From the IMG/VR virus record IMGVR_UViG_3300035684_000003, positions 1,878 to 65,877 of that record: DNA of 64,000 bases; one strand, written 5' to 3'. The stretch is from a virus. The notes beneath the pieces were generated by a model. It had not been told where the DNA came from. It did no database searches and saw only the letters and a list, made by a program, of their open reading frames with translations. Below are positions 670 through 61,769 of the stretch, in pieces. Numbering within the stretch: the first letter of the stretch is position 1; every line of letters starts with the position of its first letter. A program made the position numbers and the translations under genes.

Positions 670-1464
670 GTGGATAAGACTTTCATAAGCTATTCGCGCA
701 AAGACTTAAACTTCGCACGCCGAATCTTGAACGCTCTCCACAACCGAGGCTTCAACCCCTGGTTCGACCTAGAAGACTTGCAGCCGGGTCGCCCCTGGAA
801 CAACGAAATGCTTTTAGGAGTGCAGCTCGCGGATAATTTGCTATTCATCATCAGTCCGGATTCGGTAGAGAGCCACGCCTGCAAAGAGGAGTTAGAGTGT
901 GCGTTGCGGCACGGGAAAAGACTAATTCCCTTGCTCTACAAGGAAACCTCCCCTCGTTTTCTCCACCCAGCCTTGCGGGAATTGCAGTGGGTTTTTCTTC
1001 GCGATGAGGATGATTTTGAGCGGGGACTGAGCCAGCTAATCAAGGTTATCGATTCACCTAGGGGAGTGAATCCGTTGAGCGATCGCACCAGCGCCGAAGT
1101 AGAAGTTATCGACCAAGAGGGAACCCGCAAAATCTCCTTGCAGCGCAGTTCCTATGTGATTGGACGTAAACCCGTAGGCGGTGCTGAGTCCGGGGTGATA
1201 GTCATCTATGATTCCACCAGGTCGGTTAGCCGCTGCCACGTCAAATTATTTTTTGATTCTGGTTTTTGGGTGGCCAGAGACCAGAGCCGCAATGGAATTA
1301 TATTTTCCCCTCCCTGTTCCAGTGGCAGACTAGAGAATGAAACAAAAATAATTTTGGGACCGGCTCATATAATCTTCAGGGAGATTTCTGTTAAAAATTT
1401 CCCCGACCCGGATGAATTTCCGACTTTTGTCGGCATAACTCAGAATGAAGAATCCCCCCCCTGA
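670..1464 (+). CDS. TIR-domain + FHA-domain protein
   Basis: TIR_2 signature FISYSRKD...WFD...LFIISPDSVESHACKEEL (catalytic Glu present); FHA motifs VIGRK, SVSRCH, DQSRNG. Confidence 0.88.
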   Translation: MDKTFISYSRKDLNFARRILNALHNRGFNPWFDLEDLQPGRPWNNEMLLGVQLADNLLFIISPDSVESHACKEELECALRHGKRLIPLLYKETSPRFLHPALRELQWVFLRDEDDFERGLSQLIKVIDSPRGVNPLSDRTSAEVEVIDQEGTRKISLQRSSYVIGRKPVGGAESGVIVIYDSTRSVSRCHVKLFFDSGFWVARDQSRNGIIFSPPCSSGRLENETKIILGPAHIIFREISVKNFPDPDEFPTFVGITQNEESPP

Positions 1465-13177: not shown

Positions 13178-15067
13178 ATGCCCCTTGACCTCAAGACCAA
13201 ACTAGAACTCGTCAAGACCGACCCATCGCTAATCACCTGGGTCTTCAACTCCGGGCCTGAGCCGGAAGACCTCTATCTTCACCAGCAGCTAGGGGGTGAT
13301 TATTTCCGCTACGAGGAAATGCTTATTGACCCACAGGTAGGAGGCAAGTTAGACGAACGGGTTGGGGCGCTGCTGGGTCGGGCAGTTTTAGTCGATGCAG
13401 CGAGTGAGGATAAGGCGGACATTGAGGCGGCAAACACTGTAAAGAGAATCTTGGATATTCCTGACTCTGACCGGAAGCGAGAGAAGCAAGATAGGAAAAA
13501 ATCTTTAATTCCCTACGAACAGATTTGCGGTAACTGGCTCAATAGCGGACTGTTGACCGGCTTTGCTGTCCAGGCGCTGGAGTGGGTGGAGAGGGACAAA
13601 TTGATTCTCCCTAATGTGGAGTTTGTGCCCCAGCGTCGTTTCACCTTTCGGTATCGGGAGCCAGATAACAAGTTAATTAAGACCTGCACGGATGAGGACT
13701 TAGACCCAACTAAAGATATTGTTTTGGTCAATGGCTACGAACTTCGGCTGCTGACTCGACGGTCTCCAATCGAAGGTGAGCGCTGCCCTCGCAACCGCTT
13801 CATCTGTTACACCTACGGCAGTATGAAAGGACTGCCCCAAGGGTTGGGGTTAGGCTACCGCATCCGCAAGTTTTTTGAGATTAGGAAAGAGGTTATCAAG
13901 TCGGGGGTACTGACGGGCGATAGACTTGGCTCACCCCCTGTTCACGGCACCTATCCAGCAGAGCTTAACCCCCAGAATCCTCAAGACGCGATTGTTTTGG
14001 GCGCTTTCAACCGCCTACTCAAAGCCATCTCCCCCAACGCTCACGCCAGCACTACAGACGGATTCAAGATAAACTTCCTCGAACCCCGTGCAGGTGGACA
14101 TCAGATATTAAAGTGGCTCTACGACACAGCGGCAATGGAAATTAGTCGCGCCATCTGGGGAGAGGGAAGCTACTCCGAGAAGTCCACTGGTAGTTACGCG
14201 GCAGAGTCTCAGCAAGCGGAAAACCGCAACGAGAACGTAGTTGACGCTGACTGCAACAGTTTAGACGAAGGTCCATGCGCTCAGTTGTGGGAGTTAATCG
14301 GGGAGTACAACTGGCCCGATGCTGCCACCCCCATCGTTAGACGGGAGACGCGCTCGGAAATCAGGCGATTAGAGCAGGAGCGACTTGAAGGGGAACGGAA
14401 GGAGGCTTATCGCAACGGTCGGGTGGGGAGCGATCGCACCTTAATCTTGGATATTGGGTTGAATGTTACAGATGATTACATTCAGCAGACCTACGGCGAG
14501 GCTTTCTCCCTGCCCGAACCTGAACCCGCACCTTTTGCAGACATCCCAGTTGAAGACGCCCCAGTTGAAGACACCCCCATTGAAGACATCCCAGTTGAAG
14601 ACACCACAGAACTCTCTGAGTCTACCGACTTTGGCGCAATTATTGACCGCGTCTTTAAGTGGAACGGTTTAGACATCGGTGTTGAATTTCTCCCTGGTGC
14701 TGTTCGCTTCCCCGGTCGCAGGAACAGTAAGAAGCTTCGCTCAGGTTATGGTCACATTCGCGGTTACCTCGGTGCCGACGGTAACGCATTAGACTGTTAC
14801 CTCTACCCAGGACTTGTCCCCCTTAATAAGGGGGACGAACCCCAAGGGAGCGATAACCCTAACGGGATTCCTTCGGATCGCATCTTTGAAATCGAGCAAA
14901 TATCCCCAGAAGATGGAGACTTTGACGAGCATAAATATATGCTGGGTTATAACTCTTCTGAATCCGCAAAGGCGGCATATTTGGCTGAGATGCCATCTGA
15001 ATATTTTGGGCGGATTCGGGCAGTTACTGTTGCGGATTTGGAACAGTACAAGCGCTCTACACCTTAA
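13178..15067 (+). CDS. Portal protein (DUF935/Mu gp29-like) with C-terminal InPase-like domain
   Basis: YEEMLIDPQVGGKLDER, GLGLG, acidic PVED linker, then WNGLDIGVE...YGHIRGYLGADGNALDCYL...FDEHKYMLGY. Confidence 0.85.
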   Translation: MPLDLKTKLELVKTDPSLITWVFNSGPEPEDLYLHQQLGGDYFRYEEMLIDPQVGGKLDERVGALLGRAVLVDAASEDKADIEAANTVKRILDIPDSDRKREKQDRKKSLIPYEQICGNWLNSGLLTGFAVQALEWVERDKLILPNVEFVPQRRFTFRYREPDNKLIKTCTDEDLDPTKDIVLVNGYELRLLTRRSPIEGERCPRNRFICYTYGSMKGLPQGLGLGYRIRKFFEIRKEVIKSGVLTGDRLGSPPVHGTYPAELNPQNPQDAIVLGAFNRLLKAISPNAHASTTDGFKINFLEPRAGGHQILKWLYDTAAMEISRAIWGEGSYSEKSTGSYAAESQQAENRNENVVDADCNSLDEGPCAQLWELIGEYNWPDAATPIVRRETRSEIRRLEQERLEGERKEAYRNGRVGSDRTLILDIGLNVTDDYIQQTYGEAFSLPEPEPAPFADIPVEDAPVEDTPIEDIPVEDTTELSESTDFGAIIDRVFKWNGLDIGVEFLPGAVRFPGRRNSKKLRSGYGHIRGYLGADGNALDCYLYPGLVPLNKGDEPQGSDNPNGIPSDRIFEIEQISPEDGDFDEHKYMLGYNSSESAKAAYLAEMPSEYFGRIRAVTVADLEQYKRSTP

Positions 15068-15091: not shown

Positions 15092-16459
15092 ATGCTGACT
15101 TCGGAAGCCATTGCATACGCTGAACTAGGGCGAATATTCCGGTTACTCAATGCGAGTTTTACGGAGTTGGCATTGTGGGGCGTGTGGTTCAAAAATCGCA
15201 ACACTCCAGCCGTCGTAACTGCATCCGACAGGGGAGATGCCATTAAAAAAGCCCGTGCAACCAAGTGCGCTGGATGGGATGAAGCCGTTGTCAGCTGTCG
15301 CCAACTTAAAGGGAAATCCTTAGAGCAAGCGAAGAAAGGGAACTGGGTGAGGGAGCGTGCCAACGGAAGTGAGGAGGGTGGCTCCTTTAAGTATCGACCT
15401 CAGCTTAAGCCCAACCATGCAGAGGGGGACGATTTCCTAACGAGTGAGGATGCTTACGAAGAGCTAGTGACAAGCGCGTTCCATGTGGCATTAGACAAGA
15501 GCATCTTGTCTATAAAAGACTCTCTCTCTGCCAAGTTGGATTGGGAGGCGTTGTATCCAAATTTGGACACAACAGTTTTATCTTCTGCTCTTGCACAAGC
15601 GAATCTGCTCGGCTTGCTCGTGGGGATGTATTCCGAACGCCCCGACAGGGAGGAGACGGAATTTGCTGATGACCCCACCCGGCTGCCATTCAATGAGGCG
15701 ATCGCATATTTCCGACAGAAGCTCAACATCCCGACTCGCACATGGAAAGATATCCAAGGGGCAGAGAACGACTGGGCATTTGCAATTGCTGGCGTCACCG
15801 GTGCCGAGATGCTGCAAGACTTCCGGATGGCATTGGATAGGTACATCGCCGATGGCACGGGATTTGCTCAGTTTGCCAAGGAGTTTGATGCTATAGCTCA
15901 AAACTTTGGCTGGCAGCCCAAAGAGGGAATAGCGAGGAAAGCTGACCTAGTTGCCAAAACTAATTTTCGGATGGCTTACGCCGCAGGGCAGTGGCAGCAA
16001 CGCCAAGACCCCTTAGTAAAACAACTTCGACCTGGGTTGATGTGGCGACACCGCGACTCCCCTAACGAGCGCCCTCACCATAAGGCGATGGATGGGATGA
16101 TATTTGATGGCAATGACCCGCAGTACTCTGGTCTTGTTGGTTTTTCAGGGTTTGGCTGCCGCTGCCGACTCTTCTCCGTCCCCGCACCAGACAGAGGATT
16201 TGATGTGCTGAGCCAAACCCTGCCTTACCAGTTCCCCGATGGCAAAACGGGTGAGGTGCCAGCAGTGAAGGTTGGGGAGAAACTCTTTCCCGTTGCCGAC
16301 CCAGGATTCTTCTACACCCCTGGCGCTAGCCCAAAATCTGCTCGACCTCACCTATTCCAACAGATGCTTGGACGGCAGCCCCCCGCGTGGCAGAAACTGA
16401 TTAGGCGAGCAATTCCGCAGCGGATATTGAGGGCATTTACACCCAAAGGATTCAATTAA
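15092..16459 (+). CDS. MuF (gpF/SPP1 gp7) head morphogenesis protein with family leader peptide
   Basis: LPFNEAIAYFRQK...AFAIAGV...TNFRMAYAAGQW...RPHH...GFGCRC; N-terminus MLTSEAIAYAELG. Confidence 0.88.
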   Translation: MLTSEAIAYAELGRIFRLLNASFTELALWGVWFKNRNTPAVVTASDRGDAIKKARATKCAGWDEAVVSCRQLKGKSLEQAKKGNWVRERANGSEEGGSFKYRPQLKPNHAEGDDFLTSEDAYEELVTSAFHVALDKSILSIKDSLSAKLDWEALYPNLDTTVLSSALAQANLLGLLVGMYSERPDREETEFADDPTRLPFNEAIAYFRQKLNIPTRTWKDIQGAENDWAFAIAGVTGAEMLQDFRMALDRYIADGTGFAQFAKEFDAIAQNFGWQPKEGIARKADLVAKTNFRMAYAAGQWQQRQDPLVKQLRPGLMWRHRDSPNERPHHKAMDGMIFDGNDPQYSGLVGFSGFGCRCRLFSVPAPDRGFDVLSQTLPYQFPDGKTGEVPAVKVGEKLFPVADPGFFYTPGASPKSARPHLFQQMLGRQPPAWQKLIRRAIPQRILRAFTPKGFN

Positions 16460-44105: not shown

Positions 44106-44981
44106 TCAAAATAAACAGAGTTGTTTAGCGGGTAGTCGCTTTGGTTGCCTGAAAGAAGCGTATATTTCAGCCTCATACTCCAGCGCCCTTTTCGGGTCGT
44201 TTGAACGAACGTACTTATTCGTTCCGTTGCCATGCTGAAGCCCCGCTGCCGCACTATCGGCTGAATAGAGCAAGTTTTGAATCTCCAGATACTCCAGAGA
44301 CTCTTTCTTCAACCCAAACCCATGCAGTCGCAAGTCGGGACGCACAGATTTAATTGCCGTAAGCACGTCGTAAATCGCCTCTGGGTTGGAGTTGCGCTTA
44401 CAAACGCTACCAACACCTACCCATGCACCAGGTTTTAATCGTTCTCCATACTGGTAGATGTGGCTAACGTATTCTTCCGGGGCATAGCCCTGAAGTACTG
44501 GGATGACATGAATTTTGGTATCTTGCAGCAGCCTACAAAGATTGTCGTAACGCAGAATAGTGATTCGTTGATGGTCTGCTACAGTTAATCCTGTATTATT
44601 GAGTACCAGCAACTCGCACATATAATCTTGAGCAACGACAGCAATCAAACGCTCGCCTAAAATGGCTTTCCACTTGCGAACTAAACTGGCATACTTGCGA
44701 GTAGATAAGTGTCCCTTGAATCCTTTGTACAATCCAGAGATGCGGGTAAAAGCAGAGGAATCAATCAAGACTTTCTGGCACCAAAAATCAGATTCGCGAT
44801 TGATTAATCGATTGATTCCAATCAGGGTGTAGCGAAATTCACCACACCCCGACCTCCCCCTAACTGGTTGATGCCATCCGCTAAAGAAAATGGGCTTTCC
44901 GACAACAGGAGGGATTAACATCGTTTTAAAAGAAAATTTCCTTTTTTTACTTTTGACGAAAGTAGGGTGAGACGCGCCCAC
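44106..44981 (-). CDS. dpdA: DpdA-like (TGT-fold) 7-deazaguanine DNA transglycosylase
   Basis: LIDSSAFT, AQDYMCE, IPVLQG, VGVGSVC, LHGFG, YSADS. Confidence 0.72.
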   Translation of the reverse strand: MGASHPTFVKSKKRKFSFKTMLIPPVVGKPIFFSGWHQPVRGRSGCGEFRYTLIGINRLINRESDFWCQKVLIDSSAFTRISGLYKGFKGHLSTRKYASLVRKWKAILGERLIAVVAQDYMCELLVLNNTGLTVADHQRITILRYDNLCRLLQDTKIHVIPVLQGYAPEEYVSHIYQYGERLKPGAWVGVGSVCKRNSNPEAIYDVLTAIKSVRPDLRLHGFGLKKESLEYLEIQNLLYSADSAAAGLQHGNGTNKYVRSNDPKRALEYEAEIYASFRQPKRLPAKQLCLF

Positions 44982-54924: not shown

Positions 54925-55038
54925 TTAAAGGGGAAAAGGTTAAGGGAAAAAAGGGAAAAGGGAAAGAAGATTTTCCTTTTCCCCTTACCCCTTAACCCTT
55001 CCCCATCTTTCAACCCCTTACCCCTTAACCCTTCCCTT

Positions 55039-55686
55039 ATGCGATACCTTGTTTCAGAAGACCAAATAATATCCCAAGACTTCCCAGAGGGCGTAAACCC
55101 TCCCGCCAACGCAACAATAGTCGATGGGCCAGAAAGTGACAACTTGGCTCTTGTTTACCTCGATATTTCTGGCAGTATCAAACTAGTCCCCCCGAAACCA
55201 TCCCCCAGTCACATCTGGGATAGCGGTCTTAAAAAATGGGTCGAGAGCATTTCCCCATCCTCCTTGCCTCAAAGTTTAGAAGAGGCAAAAACACTTAAAA
55301 TTCAGCAGCTTTATCAAGAATGCGATCGCACTCTCGGACAATTCACCGTAGGGCGCAGCAACGAGGCGCTTTCGTGGTATGCCAAGGAAGTAGAAGCCAA
55401 AAGATTTTTGAGTGCAATTAATGATTCTGGCTCAGAAGAATTAGCCAGCTCTCAAGCCAACCTATTGGAGATAGCCCCTGCCCTCAAGGAAGAAGCGACC
55501 AGAGAGGGGATGAGTACAACAGAAATATTACAAGCCACAACAGTTCTGGCTCAAACTGTTGTGGCAAAGGCTGAGATGCTCAAAATAGAAGTGGCGCGTA
55601 TTGTCCGGGCTAGAACAATACAGAAAGAGGAAATTGATAAAATGACTGATGTTGAGTCGGTGATAAGTTTTTCAATTTCGTTCTAG
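55039..55686 (+). CDS. Tail fibre assembly/chaperone-like protein
   Basis: PPKPSPSH.WD....WV...LEEAK..KI motif; follows the fibre gene. Confidence 0.65.
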   Translation: MRYLVSEDQIISQDFPEGVNPPANATIVDGPESDNLALVYLDISGSIKLVPPKPSPSHIWDSGLKKWVESISPSSLPQSLEEAKTLKIQQLYQECDRTLGQFTVGRSNEALSWYAKEVEAKRFLSAINDSGSEELASSQANLLEIAPALKEEATREGMSTTEILQATTVLAQTVVAKAEMLKIEVARIVRARTIQKEEIDKMTDVESVISFSISF

Positions 55687-55992
55687 ATGAGTGAGCCACT
55701 TTGGGTAAAAGAGCTTGGTAAATTTACTCTACTTGAGTATCCCGATGAGCCAAATACTTTGCATTGCACAGTAACTTATCAGTTTGATTCGGATGAAATT
55801 GAAGAAGGCGACGAAGAAACTCTTACCTTTGCCTTTGGTAGTTGGGGATGTGACCGTGAAAGGATAACAGAGGCAGATTGTTTGCTTTGCTGCAAAGGTA
55901 TGCAAGCTTATAATGCAAATGTTTCGATATCATCCTTTCACAAAAATCTTGAGTTCATCTGGATGGAAGTTGAAGGGGTAGAGGAAGAGTAG
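55687..55992 (+). CDS. Hypothetical acidic protein
   Basis: 101-aa ORF abutting the previous gene. Confidence 0.55.
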   Translation: MSEPLWVKELGKFTLLEYPDEPNTLHCTVTYQFDSDEIEEGDEETLTFAFGSWGCDRERITEADCLLCCKGMQAYNANVSISSFHKNLEFIWMEVEGVEEE

Positions 55993-56014
55993 CGATTTGT
56001 GGCTCTTATCAAGT

Positions 56015-56043
56015 AAAAGCCCCTCATGAAGAAGGGGCTTTTT
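56015..56043. terminator. Bidirectional terminator between convergent operons
   Basis: AAAAGCCCCT...AGGGGCTTTT. Confidence 0.7.
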
Positions 56044-56083
56044 AGTCGGGAACATTCAGTCCTAACCTCATGTTAGAGGCTGA

Positions 56084-57883
56084 TTAAATCTGCATTAAAT
56101 ACTTAGCTTGTCCTGAAGGTATCCCCAAATTTAGTAATTGTCGGTAAGCGACACTTTTTGATATATCTTCCTCTGCCTTGACTCCTTCTTGATTTGAAGG
56201 CAAACTTTCCGTCGCCAAGTCCCGACGCGGTAAAACTTGTTTTACTTCGTTTGCTATAGCCCGTGCCATCTCAGACGGCAACCCATTTCCAAGCAGAGGT
56301 CCGAAAACAGACGGCGCGTCAGGCAGTTGATACCAGTCGTAAAGTCCCATCAGTCTCGCTACGCCGCGATTCGTTACCCGTCGCCACTCTCCATTGCCGT
56401 CCCAAGTGTTCAACCCGTCATGGCGAGAGCTGTTGTTCTGGTCAGTGAATATGGCGCTTTTGACCGTCCAGGCAGGGCATGAGCTTCCTCTGACTTGGGG
56501 GGTGGTGTTCCTGGCACCGGAGCGTTCAACGAGATAAAAAGGAAATTTTCCTTTTTCCAACTTGTTCAAATTTTTCAGCTGCCACGGTGCTGGCTGAGTC
56601 AGAGGAAAAGTATGAATTAAATCCCCCATCGCCCACCCCCATCCAAAAGGTGTAGCTTGCATTGCATCGGGCAAAAACACGGGGAAACGGGCTTGTGCGA
56701 CGGCAATTAAAATGAATCGCTTTCTGTCTTGAGCCACCCCGTAAGATGAAGCATTCAACACGCCATAGCGGTAGCGATATCCATTACGCCTGAGAGTTCG
56801 CCCAATAATTTTGAAACACTCAGAGTCTTTGTACTCACAAACGTTTTCAAGCACAAAAACAGACGGAAGTAACTCCTCTAATCCCTGTGCCGCAGCTTGA
56901 GCTACTTCAATATCCGTGCTGTTTTCCTTACCTTTTTGATTGGCTCGACTTAGATTCTTGCACGACTGAGTGAAAACCACGACAGCGGGACGGGACTGGG
57001 ACTTAAACCCTCCCCTTGCCGCATACTCTTGCAGAGTTTCCCGGATGACGGGCTTGCCAAAGTTGAGTTCGTAGCAGTCGGCGATGCGATCGCTCAGTTT
57101 CGGGTTCTTGGGGTCGCGGTCGATGTTGACCCCAATCTGGAAGCCTGCCTGAAAAAATCCAGCCGTCCCCACTCCTCCACCCCCACACCAAAAGTCAACA
57201 ACGGGAGCGTCTTCTTTAGGTTGAGGCTTGGGTTCACTTGCAAAAGGGGGTGGGGTCAAAGGAAAATTTCCTTTTTCTTCCTGTAGGGGGGAGTCCGCTT
57301 TTTCCTTGCAAGGCGAATAAGAACGCCGGTGAACTCCCTCGATTAGCCCATATCGAGCGATCGCAGCTTTGTGAAACACTGTGGCGTATCCGGAGTTCAT
57401 AGAAAAGCCATACTCCGGATAGTGCGCAGAAACTATGAGCCAGTACAGGTCGAGAGCGTGCTTAGCGACGATACTGGCGGCGGAAACCTCTAAGTGCGTA
57501 GCGTCAGCCGCTTTTTCGCGCCGAGACGCAATGCATAGCTTTGGCATCGCAAGGTCGCCTATCACGTCGCGGACTTCGTACCCTGAGGACTGGAGGTGAG
57601 CAACTGCTCTGCTAACCGCTAGCCCCTCGGCGGGATTGATTCCCAGTCTGTCTATTTCTTCTGGTGTCGCCGCCCCAAGCCCGACAACACAGCTAACCTG
57701 GATAAGTTTGACCAGCTTCGCCCTTTGGTCGGAGTTTGTTAACTTGGAGTCTTTGACGCCAGGAAGTGTCAGCCCTTCTGGAACTCCCACTACTGCCCAA
57801 ATGTTCAGTCCAGCACAGTTGCCCCGACCAACGCCATCGGCTCCCCATCGGTAATACTCAGCTTTGTCAATCATTGCTCGCAC
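56084..57883 (-). CDS. RNase HII-like domain fused to a C5-cytosine DNA methyltransferase
   Basis: GADGVGRG, VKDSK, AASIVAK, YGF..N.GYAT..H, HRRSY (RNase HII); FWCGGGG, QSCK, FVLENV, QDRKR, GNG (Dcm motifs I, IV, VI, VIII, X). Confidence 0.82.
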   Translation of the reverse strand: MRAMIDKAEYYRWGADGVGRGNCAGLNIWAVVGVPEGLTLPGVKDSKLTNSDQRAKLVKLIQVSCVVGLGAATPEEIDRLGINPAEGLAVSRAVAHLQSSGYEVRDVIGDLAMPKLCIASRREKAADATHLEVSAASIVAKHALDLYWLIVSAHYPEYGFSMNSGYATVFHKAAIARYGLIEGVHRRSYSPCKEKADSPLQEEKGNFPLTPPPFASEPKPQPKEDAPVVDFWCGGGGVGTAGFFQAGFQIGVNIDRDPKNPKLSDRIADCYELNFGKPVIRETLQEYAARGGFKSQSRPAVVVFTQSCKNLSRANQKGKENSTDIEVAQAAAQGLEELLPSVFVLENVCEYKDSECFKIIGRTLRRNGYRYRYGVLNASSYGVAQDRKRFILIAVAQARFPVFLPDAMQATPFGWGWAMGDLIHTFPLTQPAPWQLKNLNKLEKGKFPFYLVERSGARNTTPQVRGSSCPAWTVKSAIFTDQNNSSRHDGLNTWDGNGEWRRVTNRGVARLMGLYDWYQLPDAPSVFGPLLGNGLPSEMARAIANEVKQVLPRRDLATESLPSNQEGVKAEEDISKSVAYRQLLNLGIPSGQAKYLMQI

Positions 57884-58100
57884 CTGTTGGATGCCAGTCC
57901 ATCAAGGGGTATCCATTGATAGATACAGCGGGAGAAAAGCCAAGCGCTAAAGCCCGCTGTTCGACCTTTGCCGTAAAATTCTCCAAAATGACTTCAGCGC
58001 ATCTGCATTCATAAAGACAATTTTTCCCGTTGACTACCTCAAGAATCTCTAGAGTACTGTGGCGGAAAATTCGACAACTCATTGACTTCCTCCAAAGCAA
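57867..58100 (-). CDS. Small hypothetical protein
   Basis: ORF overlapping the start of the MTase fusion. Confidence 0.4.
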   Translation of the reverse strand: MLWRKSMSCRIFRHSTLEILEVVNGKNCLYECRCAEVILENFTAKVEQRALALGFSPAVSINGYPLMDWHPTGASND

Positions 58101-58353
58101 GTATTTCTATTCCAAAATCAACATGGATTAAGGGGTTAGGGAACGGAACAGGGGTTAGGGAGCAGGGGTTAGGGGTTGGGGCAAACTCTCTCCCCATCCC
58201 CCGTCCCCCATCCCCCACCCCCTATCCTCCAACCTCTATTCCTGGGTTTAGGCGCATAGCTCATTCACCTCCAGCAAAGTCAAGTCAGTTGAAAAAAGCC
58301 CTTTCTCGTTCCAAGGATTTGTCTCTATCCGCTCTATCAGGTTGAAGCGATTG

Positions 58354-59735
58354 ATAAACTACTCAGGCTTACTTCGATAAACTACTCCCGCGTTCCCGTT
58401 GAAGCCTGAGTTTTCAGTAGCCCTGTATCCCAGATGGTCAACTGAACAGGTTGTCCCGTCCACAAAACACAACTGAGATACGAACCTCCAGGCTGGTTTA
58501 TAGACAGCCCCAAACTAGAAATATTTTTTGCACCATTTTCGTCAGCATCGCCAACCCAACCGCAATGTCCACACTTAAACTTCTTGCCACTTCTGTACGA
58601 CTCACCCCGAACCGGGTGAATGTGCAGGCATTTGTGGCAGGTTTGGCTGGTATATCTTGGGTCAACAAACACCAAATTCACACCAAACTTTATCGCTTTG
58701 TAAGTCAGGAATTGGCGGAGTTGGTAGAACGCCCAACTATTACTTCTACGTCGCTCTGTTTTAGAACGAGGTTGCTGGTTGGTGCGCTCACGAATCCCCG
58801 TCAAATCCTCCAACGCAATAGTTTGGTTAGTATTTTTGGCGTGTTGGATGAGTCGATAGCTGACAGTATGGTTCACCTGTGTTTGAAATCTCCGTTCTCG
58901 CCCACTCAACCGTTGCAAGACCTGTCTCGCCCTACGACGAGTAGACCTTGTGCCTTTGGACGCTTTTTGCTGCAACGAAGCTCTTACACGGGCATATTTG
59001 TCCCGAACCTGAGTTATTTGTTTTCCACTAAACTTCTCCCCTTCCGAGGTAACGCAAATGTCTGTGCGACCCAAATCGATACCCAAAACCTTATCTGTTT
59101 GTCCGGGTTGTGGTGGCTCAGATTCAAGCTGAATTTGCAGGTAGTAAGTACCATCTTTGCGCTTTACCAGGACTGCCGATTTAGGGTTTCTTCCTGTCAG
59201 CAAATGACGCTGATAGTTGCCGATATGCAATGGGAATTTTTCTCTTCCCTTGAGCATGGTCAAACTAACTGTCCAGTCTTTCTCCTTAAAAGTGAAAGTT
59301 CTGGCGTCATACGTCGCACTGGTAGGGGCAAACCCTTTAACAGGTCGGTCTTGCTGTTTAGCCGTTTTGCGGTTAGCACAAACCCTGCGAATGGCATGAA
59401 TGGTCATCTGAGCCGACAAGCCAGAATAGTCCCGTGCTTCCTTATAAATCAAGGATTGTACGGCTATTTGGTTAGTCAGTTTTGGGTCTGTGTTTTTGTT
59501 CACGTACTCACAGCAACTTGCAAAGGCACGAAGTACCGCATCAAGTTTTTCAACCTGACTGGGGGTAACTTCGAGTTTGCAGCTAACCGTGAGGACTTGA
59601 GACATTTTCAATTAGTGAAGAATATGGAACAATCATACCATGTGATTGCTAACTTCGGGGGTGTTGAACCCCGCTCAGTTAGCCGCTATCCCTCCCCAGG
59701 TTGCTTCGCTGAACCTGGGGACTCCCGCGTTCCCG
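58354..59735 (-). mobile_element. IS200/IS605-family element carrying tnpB only
   Basis: Left-end hairpin CCCCAGGTTCAGCGAAGCAACCTGGGG after target TCAA; right-end stem ACTCAGGCTT/AAGCCTGAGT ending TTAT; no tnpA. Confidence 0.85.
58382..59611 (-). CDS. tnpB: TnpB RNA-guided endonuclease
   Basis: GIDLG (RuvC-I), IALEDL (RuvC-II), CHKC...CGHC zinc finger, ADENGAKNI (RuvC-III). Confidence 0.93.
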   Translation of the reverse strand: MKMSQVLTVSCKLEVTPSQVEKLDAVLRAFASCCEYVNKNTDPKLTNQIAVQSLIYKEARDYSGLSAQMTIHAIRRVCANRKTAKQQDRPVKGFAPTSATYDARTFTFKEKDWTVSLTMLKGREKFPLHIGNYQRHLLTGRNPKSAVLVKRKDGTYYLQIQLESEPPQPGQTDKVLGIDLGRTDICVTSEGEKFSGKQITQVRDKYARVRASLQQKASKGTRSTRRRARQVLQRLSGRERRFQTQVNHTVSYRLIQHAKNTNQTIALEDLTGIRERTNQQPRSKTERRRSNSWAFYQLRQFLTYKAIKFGVNLVFVDPRYTSQTCHKCLHIHPVRGESYRSGKKFKCGHCGWVGDADENGAKNISSLGLSINQPGGSYLSCVLWTGQPVQLTIWDTGLLKTQASTGTRE

Positions 59736-60011
59736 TTGAAAAGGAAAATCTGATTTACTCCCTTCTCCTCACCCGCCTTGCTATTAATCAAGCAGTAGCA
59801 ACACGCCTGAGCAAAAGCGTCCCAGACCTCGCGCTTGGTCATCGCCTGCCCCGTGGGGTCGTGCAAATCTTTTGGGACTCTTATGGTGGCTGTTCCGAGT
59901 AACAGTTCTGAATCGTCGCTTAACATACGGCGCTTTAATTCGACGTTGTAGAGCTGGTAAGCGATTGTGGGCGGCTGAGTCTTGTTAAATCCTTTCATGG
60001 CGAATAAAACT

Positions 60012-60728
60012 CTAAAACTCCAGTTCCTGTGATAGCTGGCCACTTGTCCGCCATGAGTTAACTAGTTCCTTGGCTATGGCTTGATATTCTTCCGCTGTAC
60101 CAACTGCCTTAACAGGCTCAGGCATTGTCATTTTTTGACTCATCTTCCCAATTAGCGACTGCATTTCTATCGCCACCTCCTCCGGTATGGGTTCAGCACT
60201 AGACGGTGGCAAAGCTGGTTTTTCTGCTGTGGCAGCCAATGCCCTGATTGCCTCGGCTTCTAGTTCGAGTTGGTCGCGCTGTGAATCGAAAAGCTGGTAG
60301 TACTCGATGAACTGTTGTCGCGACCATTTGATGTCTTGGTCGCTCAGTCGCGATAGCGCCGATAATCCCCCTAGCGTTTTAAGCGCCTTTAAAGCCACCG
60401 CATCTAATTTGAGGGAGGATATGAGCTGACCATACTCTTTCGTGGCGTCAGGAGCCGTGGGGAAGGCTTTCCTCCCCTGTTCTATGCGCTGCCACTGGTC
60501 GAGAATGTGAATCTTCTGCCCAGTGCCAGCAAGCTCGGCTATCTCTTCAGGAGTTGGCATGGACTTGCACTTGATAAAAGCCATCTCAATCGCTTGCTCA
60601 AATTGGGCTGTATTTAGCGATTGGCTGAGGTGCTTGTAAAAGACCCGTTGAACAAAAGGGCTGATATCTTTCTTGTGGTAAGCCGCTAACTCATCTAACA
60701 ATGTGGCAAAAACTTCTTTGTCTAGCAT
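60012..60728 (-). CDS. Putative replication helper / helicase loader-like protein
   Basis: Directly downstream of the initiator; F..AI..A......MPTPEEIAEL...W motif. Confidence 0.55.
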   Translation of the reverse strand: MLDKEVFATLLDELAAYHKKDISPFVQRVFYKHLSQSLNTAQFEQAIEMAFIKCKSMPTPEEIAELAGTGQKIHILDQWQRIEQGRKAFPTAPDATKEYGQLISSLKLDAVALKALKTLGGLSALSRLSDQDIKWSRQQFIEYYQLFDSQRDQLELEAEAIRALAATAEKPALPPSSAEPIPEEVAIEMQSLIGKMSQKMTMPEPVKAVGTAEEYQAIAKELVNSWRTSGQLSQELEF

Positions 60729-60737
60729 GATTCACTC

Positions 60738-61769
60738 CTACAGGTCTGCAATGTTTGAAAGGATGCTATGGACGGAAGCTGCGCGCTCTCTGCTACAGCC
60801 AAGAACTTGAGTGGTCTTCCAGGACTTGACCATCTCAGTTAGCTCTGTCCAGCGTTCTGGTGTTCGTTCACAAGCCAAGATGAGTCGCGATGCGTACTCG
60901 CTATCCTTGCGATCGCGCTTAGCAATAAACGCCACAAAACCTCGGTCGATGTCGTTTGGCTTAGAGTTCAGAATCATCCCGCTGCCACGGTAAGCCTTGA
61001 CAACTTCAGCTAACTGTTGCTTTGCAAGCTTGAGCAATTCGTGCCTCGGTAGTTTTTCTATCTCACCGTTTTCATACCGCCTTAGCACTTCTGACTCTTG
61101 AGCGTTGTTATCACACCCCGGAGTGGGAAATTTAGTCTCACAGTCAACTTGATTTACTTGTGAGAGACTGACGTTTTTTTCTTCAGCGAAGCGAGGTGAG
61201 TCTTGGTGGCTATCCGTGACAATTTCAGCTTCAACAGGAACAGCTTCGCCCTCGCTTTCCTTCTGAGAGAGATCTGAATTTAGATCTGAATTTAGATCTG
61301 AAATAGATCTGTCGTGCGCGCGTTCTATATATATGCCGCTGTTAGATTCCTCTAACTCGGTGCGATCGCAATCTAACAGGGTGTTATTTTCTTCTAACAC
61401 CCTGTTAGATTTTTCTAACACCCTGAGAGATTTATCTAACACCGTGTTAGATTTTGGCGCTACGAGATTTCGAGCCTTCCAGCCATCAACCTGAAAATCA
61501 AATAACCCTAGCCTTTGGAGTTTAGATTGGGCAATATTGATTGTTTCTCTCCTGACCCCAAGATGTTCGGCTATTTGTTTTTGCGACGGAAGCTTGACGA
61601 ATCTATTGCCAAATCGGTCTAGCTTGAACAAGTACCAGAACAAACGCCGCTCTGTTTTGGTTAGGACATCCTGCTCTAGAAGATCTAAAACTCTATTCTC
61701 GATTTGAGCAAAGCCCGGCTCTGACCGCCTCTCCTCCTTACTCTGCTTGCTCATGTCCAACCTCCTCAA
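60738..61769 (-). CDS. Phage replication initiator (wHTH)
   Basis: LTKTERRLFWYL...PSQKQIAEHLGVRRETINIAQSKL...GL; internal iterons. Confidence 0.75.
   Translation of the reverse strand: MRRLDMSKQSKEERRSEPGFAQIENRVLDLLEQDVLTKTERRLFWYLFKLDRFGNRFVKLPSQKQIAEHLGVRRETINIAQSKLQRLGLFDFQVDGWKARNLVAPKSNTVLDKSLRVLEKSNRVLEENNTLLDCDRTELEESNSGIYIERAHDRSISDLNSDLNSDLSQKESEGEAVPVEAEIVTDSHQDSPRFAEEKNVSLSQVNQVDCETKFPTPGCDNNAQESEVLRRYENGEIEKLPRHELLKLAKQQLAEVVKAYRGSGMILNSKPNDIDRGFVAFIAKRDRKDSEYASRLILACERTPERWTELTEMVKSWKTTQVLGCSRERAASVHSILSNIADL
61351..61451. repeat. Iteron array (putative replication origin)
   Basis: TCTAAC-N5-GTTAGA-like units at 61351, 61372, 61393, 61414 and 61435 (21-bp period); 12-bp AGATCTGAATTT repeats at about 61269-61309. 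Confidence 0.7.

What the first reader, a model, noticed from the sequence alone, without database searches (positions are those of the whole stretch)
56084..57883. RNase HII-like domain fused to a C5 DNA methyltransferase
One continuous ORF joins an RNase HII fold to a complete Dcm-type MTase. In the RNase HII part the usual DEAGRG reads DGVGRG, so the second acidic residue is lost while other Asp positions appear kept; MTase motif IV reads SC rather than PC. I do not know this fusion. Inference: the RNase H fold may direct methylation to RNA:DNA hybrids or nascent DNA, or act as a binding module.
Basis: partly seen in the sequence, partly recalled or inferred. Interest (0 to 1): 0.65.

Follow-up and report, generated by a model that had tools for sequence, protein, structure and literature searches.

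The report
Phage methylase fused to altered RNase HII
A phage gene joins a DNA cytosine methylase to a remodelled copy of the repair enzyme RNase HII, and this rare RNase HII variant turns up next to or fused with several unrelated phage DNA methylases, so it is probably a so far undescribed helper module for phage DNA methylation.

Summary
One uninterrupted ORF (56084-57883, minus strand; likely ATG start at 57874) in a 70.9-kb, probably cyanophage, viral contig encodes three parts. These are an RNase HII-fold domain (res 11-196), a Pro-rich linker, and a complete C5 DNA methyltransferase (res 228-548).

The RNase HII part reads D-G-D-D instead of DEDD, so only the Glu is lost. It keeps the GRG, DSK and Tyr junction-sensing residues. 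It belongs to a rare phage subfamily (about 10 loci) that forms one clade on a long stem, with its own conserved replacements.

The MTase keeps the Cys, ENV, QxRxR and GN motifs. The 'SC' motif IV is a trait of a five-member clade that includes stand-alone enzymes.

The exact fusion is unique. However, the same RNase HII variant is fused or adjacent to other MTases: a split C5 enzyme, Dam, and an MTS/Eco57I-like N6A enzyme. A lost stop codon does not explain this fusion.

Best reading (about 45%): a catalytically attenuated RNA-DNA-junction reader that acts as an accessory module of phage protective MTases. The main rival is an independently active RNase HII. Function is untested. I found no description of this pairing in the searchable papers. 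New variant of a known kind; moderate interest.

The parts
56084..57883 (-). Whole ORF: 599 codons from GTG 57883. The more likely start is ATG 57874, giving 596 aa (= P0002). Stop codon at 56084-56086.
57296..57853 (-). RNase HII-like domain (res 11-196) of the 'DG' subfamily
   Evidence: Pfam PF01351 at 5e-17. E. coli RNase HII 7uwh at 7e-22. AF2 model pLDDT 93.6; Foldseek to 7uwe_C gives TM 0.83/0.89 and rmsd 1.7 A. 59-61% identity to P0005, P0006 and P0036.
57833..57838 (-). Codons D16-G17. This is the canonical D-E pair at the end of strand 1; the Glu is replaced by Gly.
   Evidence: role of the Glu from PMC3025331
57554..57556 (-). D110, the third catalytic Asp. The local motif is GDL instead of DG, directly after strand 107-109.
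   Evidence: hhalign; invariant column in the 48-sequence alignment; DSSP of the model
57503..57505 (-). D127, the fourth carboxylate, invariant
57386..57388 (-). Y166, the junction-sensing Tyr (Tm Y163 equivalent), invariant. GRG lies at 57821-57829 and DSK at 57743-57751.
57203..57295 (-). Pro-rich linker (res 197-227). Homology to the RNase HII subfamily ends at about res 196. Homology to the MTase clade starts at about res 211.
56240..57202 (-). C5 cytosine DNA methyltransferase domain (res 228-548). Motif I is FWCGGGG, IV is TQSC, VI is ENV, VIII is QDRKR and X is GNGLP.
   Evidence: Pfam PF00145 at 2e-25; phrog_116; alignment A3; residue check
56960..56965 (-). S307-C308: motif IV with Ser in place of the usual Pro. 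The catalytic Cys is kept and aligns with HhaI C81.
56087..56239 (-). C-terminal tail (res 549-599) with no family match. Its end weakly resembles a short 'SLG...QxLP' stretch in the long relatives.
56020..56036 (-). Terminator-like hairpin plus T-run, 48 nt after the stop codon
   Evidence: consensus scan only; the count is no higher than in shuffled sequence

Best explanation
The gene sits in the early/replication arm of a Mu-like-headed, probably cyanobacterial, phage. It encodes a two-module protein.

Module 2 (C-terminal) is most likely an active SAM-dependent C5 cytosine DNA methyltransferase. It would be an orphan, self-protective phage MTase, with a clade-specific Ser-Cys motif IV.

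Module 1 (N-terminal) derives from bacterial RNase HII. It belongs to a small phage subfamily whose active site is remodelled from DEDD to DGDD, and in which one of the two Arg that prop the GRG loop is replaced by Leu. The residues that read a (5')RNA-DNA(3') junction (GRG, DSK, Tyr) are kept.

I infer that module 1 is a cleavage-attenuated reader of ribonucleotide/RNA-DNA junctions. It would work as an accessory module of phage DNA MTases. One possibility is that it holds them on RNA-primed nascent DNA behind the fork. Another is that it deals with RNA-DNA hybrid stretches that MTases bind poorly. Either would get new phage DNA methylated before host restriction enzymes reach it.

Shown here: the domains, the motif states, the subfamily and the recurrent MTase linkage. 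Inferred: MTase activity, loss or reduction of cleavage, and the targeting role.
For: Domain identity:
- Pfam, PDB sequence search and the structure model agree on both domains.

RNase HII active site:
- E to G in 7/7 subfamily members, against E in 40/40 canonical enzymes. D16, D110, D127, GRG, DSK and Y166 are kept.
- In T. maritima RNase H2 the Glu side chain ligates metal B. Mutating its equivalents abolished activity in archaeal enzymes (PMC3025331).

Signs of a new function rather than decay:
- The subfamily is a single group (SH-aLRT 100) on a 2.16 substitutions/site stem.
- It has its own invariant residues: W13, N22, N27, W29, E86, L144, W148.

Linkage to MTases:
- Window: variant-C5 MTase.
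- L002 and L009: C5alpha gene, then C5beta-variant-linker-Dam.
- L005-L007: C5beta gene overlapping the start of a stand-alone variant gene. The C5beta is 44% identical to the N-terminus of the L009 fusion.
- L008: variant-MTS/Eco57I-like N6A MTase.
- L003: variant polyprotein followed by a weak MTS-like gene.
- Among the 150 best representatives out of 1.84 billion proteins, every protein over 400 aa belongs to this subfamily.

MTase:
- The catalytic set is intact, and the SC clade includes stand-alone 350-aa enzymes.

Context and precedent:
- The neighbours are a replication-initiator-like gene and, in relatives, DnaB and SNF2 helicase genes.
- RNA-DNA hybrids exclude a bacterial MTase from DNA, and that MTase concentrates at the replisome (PMC9973331).
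Against: - There is no biochemical or expression evidence.
- Three carboxylates, including the two 'key' ones (D16, D110), remain. A subfamily-specific invariant Glu (E86) could compensate for the lost Glu, so the domain may still cut.
- Three loci carry the variant as a stand-alone gene with no recognisable MTase neighbour (P0038, P0039, L010).
- Variable order and variable partners are also what mere co-deployment ('polyvalent' fusion) would give.
- The census is small, about 10 loci, several of them from related phages.
Confidence: 0.45

Rival explanations
1. Independent bifunctional enzyme. The N-domain is a working RNase HII that removes Okazaki primers or embedded rNMPs for phage replication, using three carboxylates or E86 in place of the lost Glu. 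It is fused to MTases only because both are early, replication-linked functions.
For: - D16, D110 and D127 and all junction-sensing residues are kept, and there is a new invariant E86.
- The gene lies in replication modules next to DnaB or replication-initiator-like genes.
- The record has no RNase H1.
- Related phages (L004, L015) carry a separate, different RNase HII gene (EE-D-D) in the same MTase-Dam block.
Against: - Mutating the equivalent Glu abolished activity in studied enzymes (PMC3025331).
- The Arg that stabilises the GRG loop is also lost, R to L.
- No canonical RNase HII among the best 150 representatives is fused to an MTase.
- The host would supply RNase HII anyway (established knowledge; the control hits all 14 reference genomes).
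Confidence: 0.27
2. Polyvalent counter-defence protein. The RNase HII-like domain acts on a host defence nucleic acid, for example by binding or cutting RNA-DNA hybrid parts of retron msDNA or of defence reverse-transcriptase products. The MTase separately blocks restriction, and the fusion only ensures joint delivery.
For: - The long relatives look like phage polyvalent proteins: 800-1135 aa, several enzymatic modules, and matches to giant PHROG families.
- This phage carries many other conflict genes: DpdA, TIR-FHA, portal-InPase and a MuF protein.
Against: - All identified partner domains are DNA MTases. None is one of the peptidase, ART or ParB domains typical of polyvalent proteins.
- The polyvalent-protein survey does not mention any RNase H domain (PMC5512222).
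- No defence target is indicated by any result.
Confidence: 0.13
3. Nuclease-methylase (restriction-like, type IIG-style) enzyme. The altered RNase H-fold domain cuts unmethylated DNA, and the fused MTase protects phage DNA.
For: - The N-terminal nuclease plus MTase order recalls type IIG enzymes, and one relative carries an Eco57I-type MTase domain.
- Loss of the Glu removes a proposed 2'-OH check at position -1 (PMC3025331).
Against: - The ribose-2'-OH reading elements (GRG, Tyr) are conserved, which points to ribonucleotide-containing substrates.
- The domain follows or precedes MTases in varying order and also stands alone.
- I know of no DNase precedent in the RNase HII family (my own knowledge).
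Confidence: 0.05
4. Artefact or decaying gene: an assembly chimera or a read-through of two genes, with one or both domains inactive.
For: - The exact fusion is a single cluster seen on 2 contigs, possibly the same assembly.
- A TnpB element lies 500 nt upstream.
- One relative (L013) is frameshifted.
Against: - The frame is uninterrupted for 599 codons, with a Pro-rich linker and no Met at the junction.
- Both halves keep family-invariant residues.
- No relative has the two genes adjacent in this order.
- The variant positions are conserved across sequences that are 44-60% identical.
Confidence: 0.04

Closest known systems
Bacterial RNase HII (RnhB; E. coli PDB 7UWE/7UWH, T. maritima RNase H2 PDB 3O3F)
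   Same: Same fold (TM 0.83-0.89, rmsd 1.5-1.7 A) at 31-35% identity. It has the GRG loop, the DSK loop, the junction Tyr, and the first, third and fourth carboxylates.
   Different: - The Glu of DEDD is Gly in the whole subfamily.
- The Arg equivalent to Tm R141 is Leu, and the DG after strand 4 reads GDL.
- There are new invariant residues: W13, N22, N27, W29, E86, W148.
- It scores below every NCBIfam RNase HII equivalog cut-off (122.7 against 167).
- It is phage-borne and MTase-linked.
Prokaryotic and phage C5 cytosine DNA methyltransferases (Dcm/M.HhaI type; PHROG 116)
   Same: Motifs I, IV (Cys), VI (ENV), VIII (QxRxR), IX and X (GN..P) occur in the canonical order. Stand-alone 350-aa relatives are 52% identical.
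   Different: Motif IV reads T-Q-S-C-K instead of P-P-C-Q; this is a trait of a five-member clade. The N-terminus carries the RNase HII-like domain. The target sequence is unknown.
Phage MTases fused to accessory DNA-binding domains (ParB-MTase fusions; 'polyvalent proteins', Iyer et al. 2017, PMC5512222)
   Same: A phage-encoded DNA-modifying enzyme is joined to a nucleic-acid-handling module. The modules shuffle, and the long relatives carry two MTases in one chain.
   Different: The partner here is an RNase HII derivative. That survey does not mention it. I found no paper listing PF01351 together with PF00145.
Naturally split C5 MTases (M.AquI alpha/beta; my own knowledge, not checked here)
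   Same: In the relatives L002, L005 and L009 the C5 MTase is split after motif VIII into an alpha ORF and a beta part.
   Different: In those relatives the beta half continues into, or overlaps the start of, the RNase HII-like module. The window's own MTase is unsplit.
CmoX, the phage C5 carboxymethyltransferase (PDB 8YF3; PMC12783734)
   Same: A C5-MTase fold in a cyanophage with a deviating motif IV context.
   Different: CmoX is defined by SPPC plus an Arg replacing HhaI N304. The window protein has TQSC and keeps the Asn (N533). The sequence match to 8yf3 is only E 0.84. It is not a CmoX.

Membership tests
RNase HII / type 2 RNase H (PF01351) | RNase HII fold (RNase H core plus C-terminal helical domain) | tested here: met
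   Pfam 62.8 bits against 25.8. AF2 model pLDDT 93.6. Foldseek to 7uwe_C and 3o3f_A gives TM 0.83.
RNase HII / type 2 RNase H (PF01351) | Four catalytic carboxylates, DEDD | tested here: not met
   The motif is D16-G17-D110-D127. Glu is present in 40/40 canonical relatives and Gly in 7/7 subfamily members.
RNase HII / type 2 RNase H (PF01351) | Junction-sensing module: GRG loop, conserved Tyr, DSK loop | tested here: met
   G19-R20-G21, Y166 and D45-S46-K47 are present. However, the Arg that props the GRG loop (Tm R141) is Leu (PMC3025331).
RNase HII / type 2 RNase H (PF01351) | Equivalog-level similarity to RnhB (NCBIfam cut-offs) | tested here: not met
   Best score is NF000595 at 122.7 bits against a cut-off of 167. 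All other models are further below their cut-offs.
RNase HII / type 2 RNase H (PF01351) | Cleavage 5' of a ribonucleotide in duplex DNA | not testable with these tools
   This needs an enzyme assay.
C5 cytosine DNA methyltransferase (PF00145) | Motif I, the FxGxG AdoMet loop | tested here: met
   F231-W-C-G234-G-G236-G
C5 cytosine DNA methyltransferase (PF00145) | Motif IV, the Pro-Cys catalytic dipeptide | tested here: inconclusive
   C308 is kept and aligns to HhaI C81. The preceding residue is Ser, not Pro, in all 5 clade members. From memory only: Pro-to-Ser mutants of M.EcoRII retain reduced activity.
C5 cytosine DNA methyltransferase (PF00145) | Motifs VI (ENV), VIII (QxRxR) and X (GN..P) | tested here: met
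   E346-N-V348, Q385-x-R387-x-R389 and G532-N533-x-x-P536 are invariant columns in A3.
C5 cytosine DNA methyltransferase (PF00145) | m5C formation on DNA; target sequence | not testable with these tools
   This needs expression plus a methylome readout.
CmoX carboxymethyltransferase | SPPC motif and an Arg at the position of HhaI N304 | tested here: not met
   The window protein has TQSC and keeps N533 in GNGLP.
Phage/plasmid polyvalent proteins (Iyer et al. 2017) | Several unrelated conflict-related enzymatic domains in one polypeptide of a phage or plasmid | tested here: inconclusive
   The window protein has only two domains. The relatives P0006 and P0185 carry C5beta + variant + Dam, and P0037 matches giant PHROG families. 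An RNase H domain is not among the domains in that survey.

The most novel reading that the evidence does not exclude
The Glu-less RNase HII derivative is a dedicated, non-cleaving reader of RNA-DNA junctions that phages have attached repeatedly to unrelated DNA methyltransferases. This would couple methylation to RNA-primed nascent DNA at the replication fork, a viral functional analogue of replication-coupled maintenance methylation (DNMT1 with PCNA), built from a repair nuclease.
Probability: 0.3. Interest if true: 0.75.

Novelty: new variant of a known kind. Interest (0 to 1): 0.55.

Why it matters
Phage orphan MTases are a main route of escape from restriction, yet little is known about how they reach newly made DNA in time. 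Their common accessory fusions, such as ParB-MTase, are still unexplained (PMC12783734).

This finding defines a rare, conserved derivative of a universal repair nuclease that keeps its ribonucleotide-reading parts, has lost a catalytic Glu, and travels with four kinds of DNA MTase. If it is a junction reader, it gives a concrete, testable link between RNA-primed replication intermediates or RNA-DNA hybrids and DNA methylation in a virus. It could also be a natural non-cutting probe for rNMPs and RNA-DNA junctions. If it is still active, it shows that RNase HII can work without the canonical Glu.

Tried and rejected
- Complex prediction on the two halves (A3 against A4) gave a score of 0.27, below the mark of 0.32. 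That is no verdict either way.
- Single-sequence scans of viral contigs for either half found nothing.
- The subfamily profile found nothing in genome contigs. It found only L009 and L010 in viral contigs and one L010-like locus in metagenome contigs.
- The small ORFs upstream of the window gene and of the L004 MTase are unrelated, so there is no shared synteny. The window shares no other gene with L002, L003 or L004.
- The CmoX (carboxymethyl) reading of the odd motif IV was rejected, because the Asn of GN is kept.
- The lost-stop artefact was rejected, because the gene order in relatives differs.
- My first pairwise alignments suggested the third Asp was replaced or shifted. The profile and larger alignments showed it is kept, as D110.
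- Pfam and PHROG scans of the linker and C-terminal regions of the long relatives and of the window tail gave nothing above noise.
- Rfam found no RNA family in 55000-61000.
Full report
**1. What is at the coordinates**

The minus-strand frame 56084..57883 is open for 599 codons from a GTG. The copy in the protein database (P0002, 596 aa) starts at the ATG three codons in, at 57874. An AGGTG lies 6 nt upstream of that ATG, so I take it as the likelier start.

Pfam finds RNase_HII at res 14-191 (E 5e-17) and C5 DNA_methylase at res 228-548 (E 2e-25). Both scores are well over the curated cut-offs. The window is part of a 70.9-kb IMG/VR virus record that is about 68% complete.

The record has a Mu-type terminase, portal and MuF, and baseplate and tail-collar genes, on the plus strand. 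The gene of interest lies on the opposite strand. Upstream of it are a TnpB, then a DUF6475/phrog_10105 gene, then an HTH protein resembling a replication initiator or DnaD-like loader.

The best phage matches of the MTase half are Planktothrix and Aphanizomenon phages. The TnpB is closest to one on a Gloeobacter plasmid. The nearest structural cluster in the ESM Atlas is a cyanobacterial MTase cluster. A cyanobacterial host is therefore likely but not shown.

**2. The RNase HII half**

The best solved relatives by sequence are E. coli RNase HII (7uwh/7uwe, E about 1e-21) and T. maritima RNase H2. An AlphaFold2 model built on a 48-sequence alignment is confident (pLDDT 93.6, pTM 0.90). It superposes on 7uwe_C and 3o3f_A with TM 0.83 and rmsd 1.5-1.7 A.

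The first pairwise alignments were ambiguous about the third catalytic Asp. Three results place D110 on it:
- the profile-profile alignment;
- the larger alignment, where D110 is an invariant column;
- the model, where D110 directly follows strand 107-109, just as Tm D107 ends strand 4.

In T. maritima RNase H2 this Glu ligates metal ion B and is proposed to check the 2'-OH at position -1. Mutating its equivalents abolished activity in archaeal enzymes (PMC3025331). [quoted passage not shown] One of the two Arg reported to stabilise the GRG loop (Tm R141) is Leu.

**3. A small, conserved phage subfamily**

An exhaustive search of 1.84 billion representative proteins found only a handful of close relatives before the score drops to ordinary RNase HII. 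They are:
- P0036 (212 aa), P0038 (191 aa) and P0039 (205 aa), which stand alone;
- P0005 (1042 aa), P0006 (844 aa) and P0037 (816 aa), which are long multi-domain proteins;
- the fragments P0045 and P0082.

Pattern scans added P0185 (1135 aa, L009) and L010/L011.

All members that cover the site read D-G. Compared with 40 canonical sequences, they share invariant replacements: W13, N22, N27, W29, T49, E86, G109/L111, L144 and W148. In a quick ML tree they form one group (SH-aLRT 100) on a stem of 2.16 substitutions per site.

This is the signature of a change of function followed by purifying selection, not of decay.

**4. The MTase half**

The half carries these motifs in canonical order:

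| Motif | Residues |
|---|---|
| I | FWCGGGG |
| IV | TQSC (C308 aligns to HhaI C81) |
| VI | ENV |
| VIII | QDRKR |
| IX | present |
| X | GNGLP |

The Ser-Cys variant is shared by a five-member clade. Its other members are:
- P0003 and P0004, 65% identical, with long C-terminal extensions;
- P0183 and P0184, 52% identical, stand-alone at 350 aa.

So the variant is a conserved trait of apparently functional enzymes.

It is not a CmoX-type carboxymethyltransferase. CmoX has SPPC and an Arg in place of HhaI N304, whereas this protein keeps the Asn. In the record this is the only match among the three DNA MTase families searched (C5, Dam, N6_N4), and RNase H1 gave no match.

**5. Fusion and linkage**

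The exact fusion is unique (one cluster). Homology to the RNase HII subfamily ends at about res 196 and homology to the MTase clade starts at about res 211, on either side of a Pro-rich linker. The window phage shares no other gene with the phages carrying the relatives. The protein is therefore a mosaic of two mobile modules.

The same RNase HII variant is tied to MTases again and again:

| Locus | Arrangement |
|---|---|
| Window | variant - C5 MTase (unsplit) |
| L002, L009 | C5 alpha ORF (motifs I-VIII), then C5 beta - variant - about 400-aa linker - Dam |
| L005-L007 | same kind of C5 beta as its own gene (44% identical to the P0185 N-terminus), overlapping the start of the stand-alone variant gene |
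| L008 | variant - MTS/Eco57I-like N6A MTase |
| L003 | variant polyprotein, followed by a weak MTS-like gene |
| L013 | frameshifted C5 beta - variant copy |

Three loci show no recognisable MTase next to the variant: P0038, P0039 and L010.

No canonical RNase HII among the 150 best representatives is fused to an MTase. Phages related through the MTase half (L004, L015) encode a separate, different and also deviant RNase HII (EE-D-D, with KRG). It lies 2-3 kb downstream in the same MTase-Dam block.

The gene orders differ, so the window's fusion is not a lost stop.

**6. Mechanism**

I consider three points well supported: the domain identities, the DGDD state, the intact MTase motif set, and a real evolutionary association between the variant and DNA MTases.

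The most economical functional reading is that the variant is an accessory module for phage DNA methylation. It would be a junction or ribonucleotide reader whose cleavage is lost or strongly reduced. It could tether MTases to RNA-primed nascent DNA. It could instead handle RNA-DNA hybrid stretches, which at least one bacterial MTase binds poorly and which exclude that MTase from the nucleoid; that MTase also concentrates at the replisome (PMC9973331). I put this reading at about 0.45.

The rivals are:
- an independently active RNase HII for phage replication (0.27);
- a polyvalent counter-defence domain aimed at RNA-DNA-based host defences (0.13);
- a restriction-like nuclease-MTase (0.05);
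- an artefact (0.04).

An interface prediction between the two halves gave no verdict.

**7. Comparison and novelty**

The halves are, respectively, a non-canonical offshoot of RNase HII and a member of the C5 MTase family with a variant motif IV. The offshoot fails the DEDD test and the equivalog cut-offs. As a system it resembles phage MTases fused to accessory DNA-binding domains (ParB-MTase) and the polyvalent proteins of phages.

The survey of polyvalent proteins does not mention RNase H. A recent RNase HII review has no mention of phage or methyltransferase. No paper in the library lists both Pfam families.

I rate it a new variant of a known kind, of moderate interest. It is rare, computational only, but coherent and directly testable.

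Noticed in passing
window 58382-59611 (-), and 58131-58219: A TnpB-type gene (Cas12f1-like TNB + OrfB_IS605; best plasmid match Gloeobacter, 55%) lies directly upstream of the fusion gene. No TnpA was recognised. Between the two genes are three AGGGGTTAGGG repeats and two CCCCATCCCCC repeats, and there is no Rfam match. The 483-aa plus-strand ORF 58451-59902 antisense to the TnpB has no family match and is probably spurious.
   Followed up: partly
window 44106-44981 (-): A DpdA-family gene (PF23859, E 4.8e-26) suggests that this phage may also put 7-deazaguanine into its DNA. It may therefore carry at least two DNA-modification routes.
   Followed up: partly
window 670-1464 (+): A phage-encoded TIR_2 domain (E 4e-28) with a C-terminal FHA domain.
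   Followed up: no
window 13178-15067 (+): A Mu-type portal protein with a C-terminal inorganic-pyrophosphatase-like (InPase) domain. The next gene is a MuF-domain protein (15092-16459).
   Followed up: no
L010 5001-5573 (IMGVR_UViG_3300021364_003460, 190 kb) and L011 (219.6-kb metagenome contig): The stand-alone RNase HII-variant gene has one in-frame TGA exactly where all relatives have Gly (GVP/GIP). Reading TGA as Gly (table 25) gives a 211-codon ORF. Most neighbouring ORFs need no recoding, so the cause could be a nonsense mutation or recoding.
   Followed up: partly
L002 2139-2737; L005 5003-5560; L009 3707-4387: The C5 MTase upstream of the RNase HII variant is split after motif VIII, at the same place in three loci that are 65-84% identical. 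In L005 and L009 the open frame that leads into the beta half overlaps the alpha ORF by about 400 nt in another frame. This could be a natural alpha/beta split (as in M.AquI, from memory) or programmed frameshifting.
   Followed up: partly
L004 12591-13211; L015 8376-8978: This is a second deviant phage RNase HII lineage. It has E-E instead of D-E and KRG instead of GRG, and keeps the other two Asp. It is 28% identical to the window domain. It is encoded 2-3 kb downstream of the SC-type C5 MTase and a Dam gene.
   Followed up: partly
L013 680-1330: A C5beta-RNase HII-variant polyprotein copy is interrupted by a short out-of-frame stretch inside the RNase HII domain. It comes from the same metagenome as L003. 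It is either a pseudogene or an assembly error.
   Followed up: partly
P0005, P0006 and P0185 linker regions (for example P0185 res 530-965): A conserved linker of about 400 aa lies between the RNase HII variant and Dam. It contains motifs such as SFPS(D/N)E and LTREQLNWVREN and has only weak DUF3102/DUF1667 hints. Its function is unknown.
   Followed up: partly
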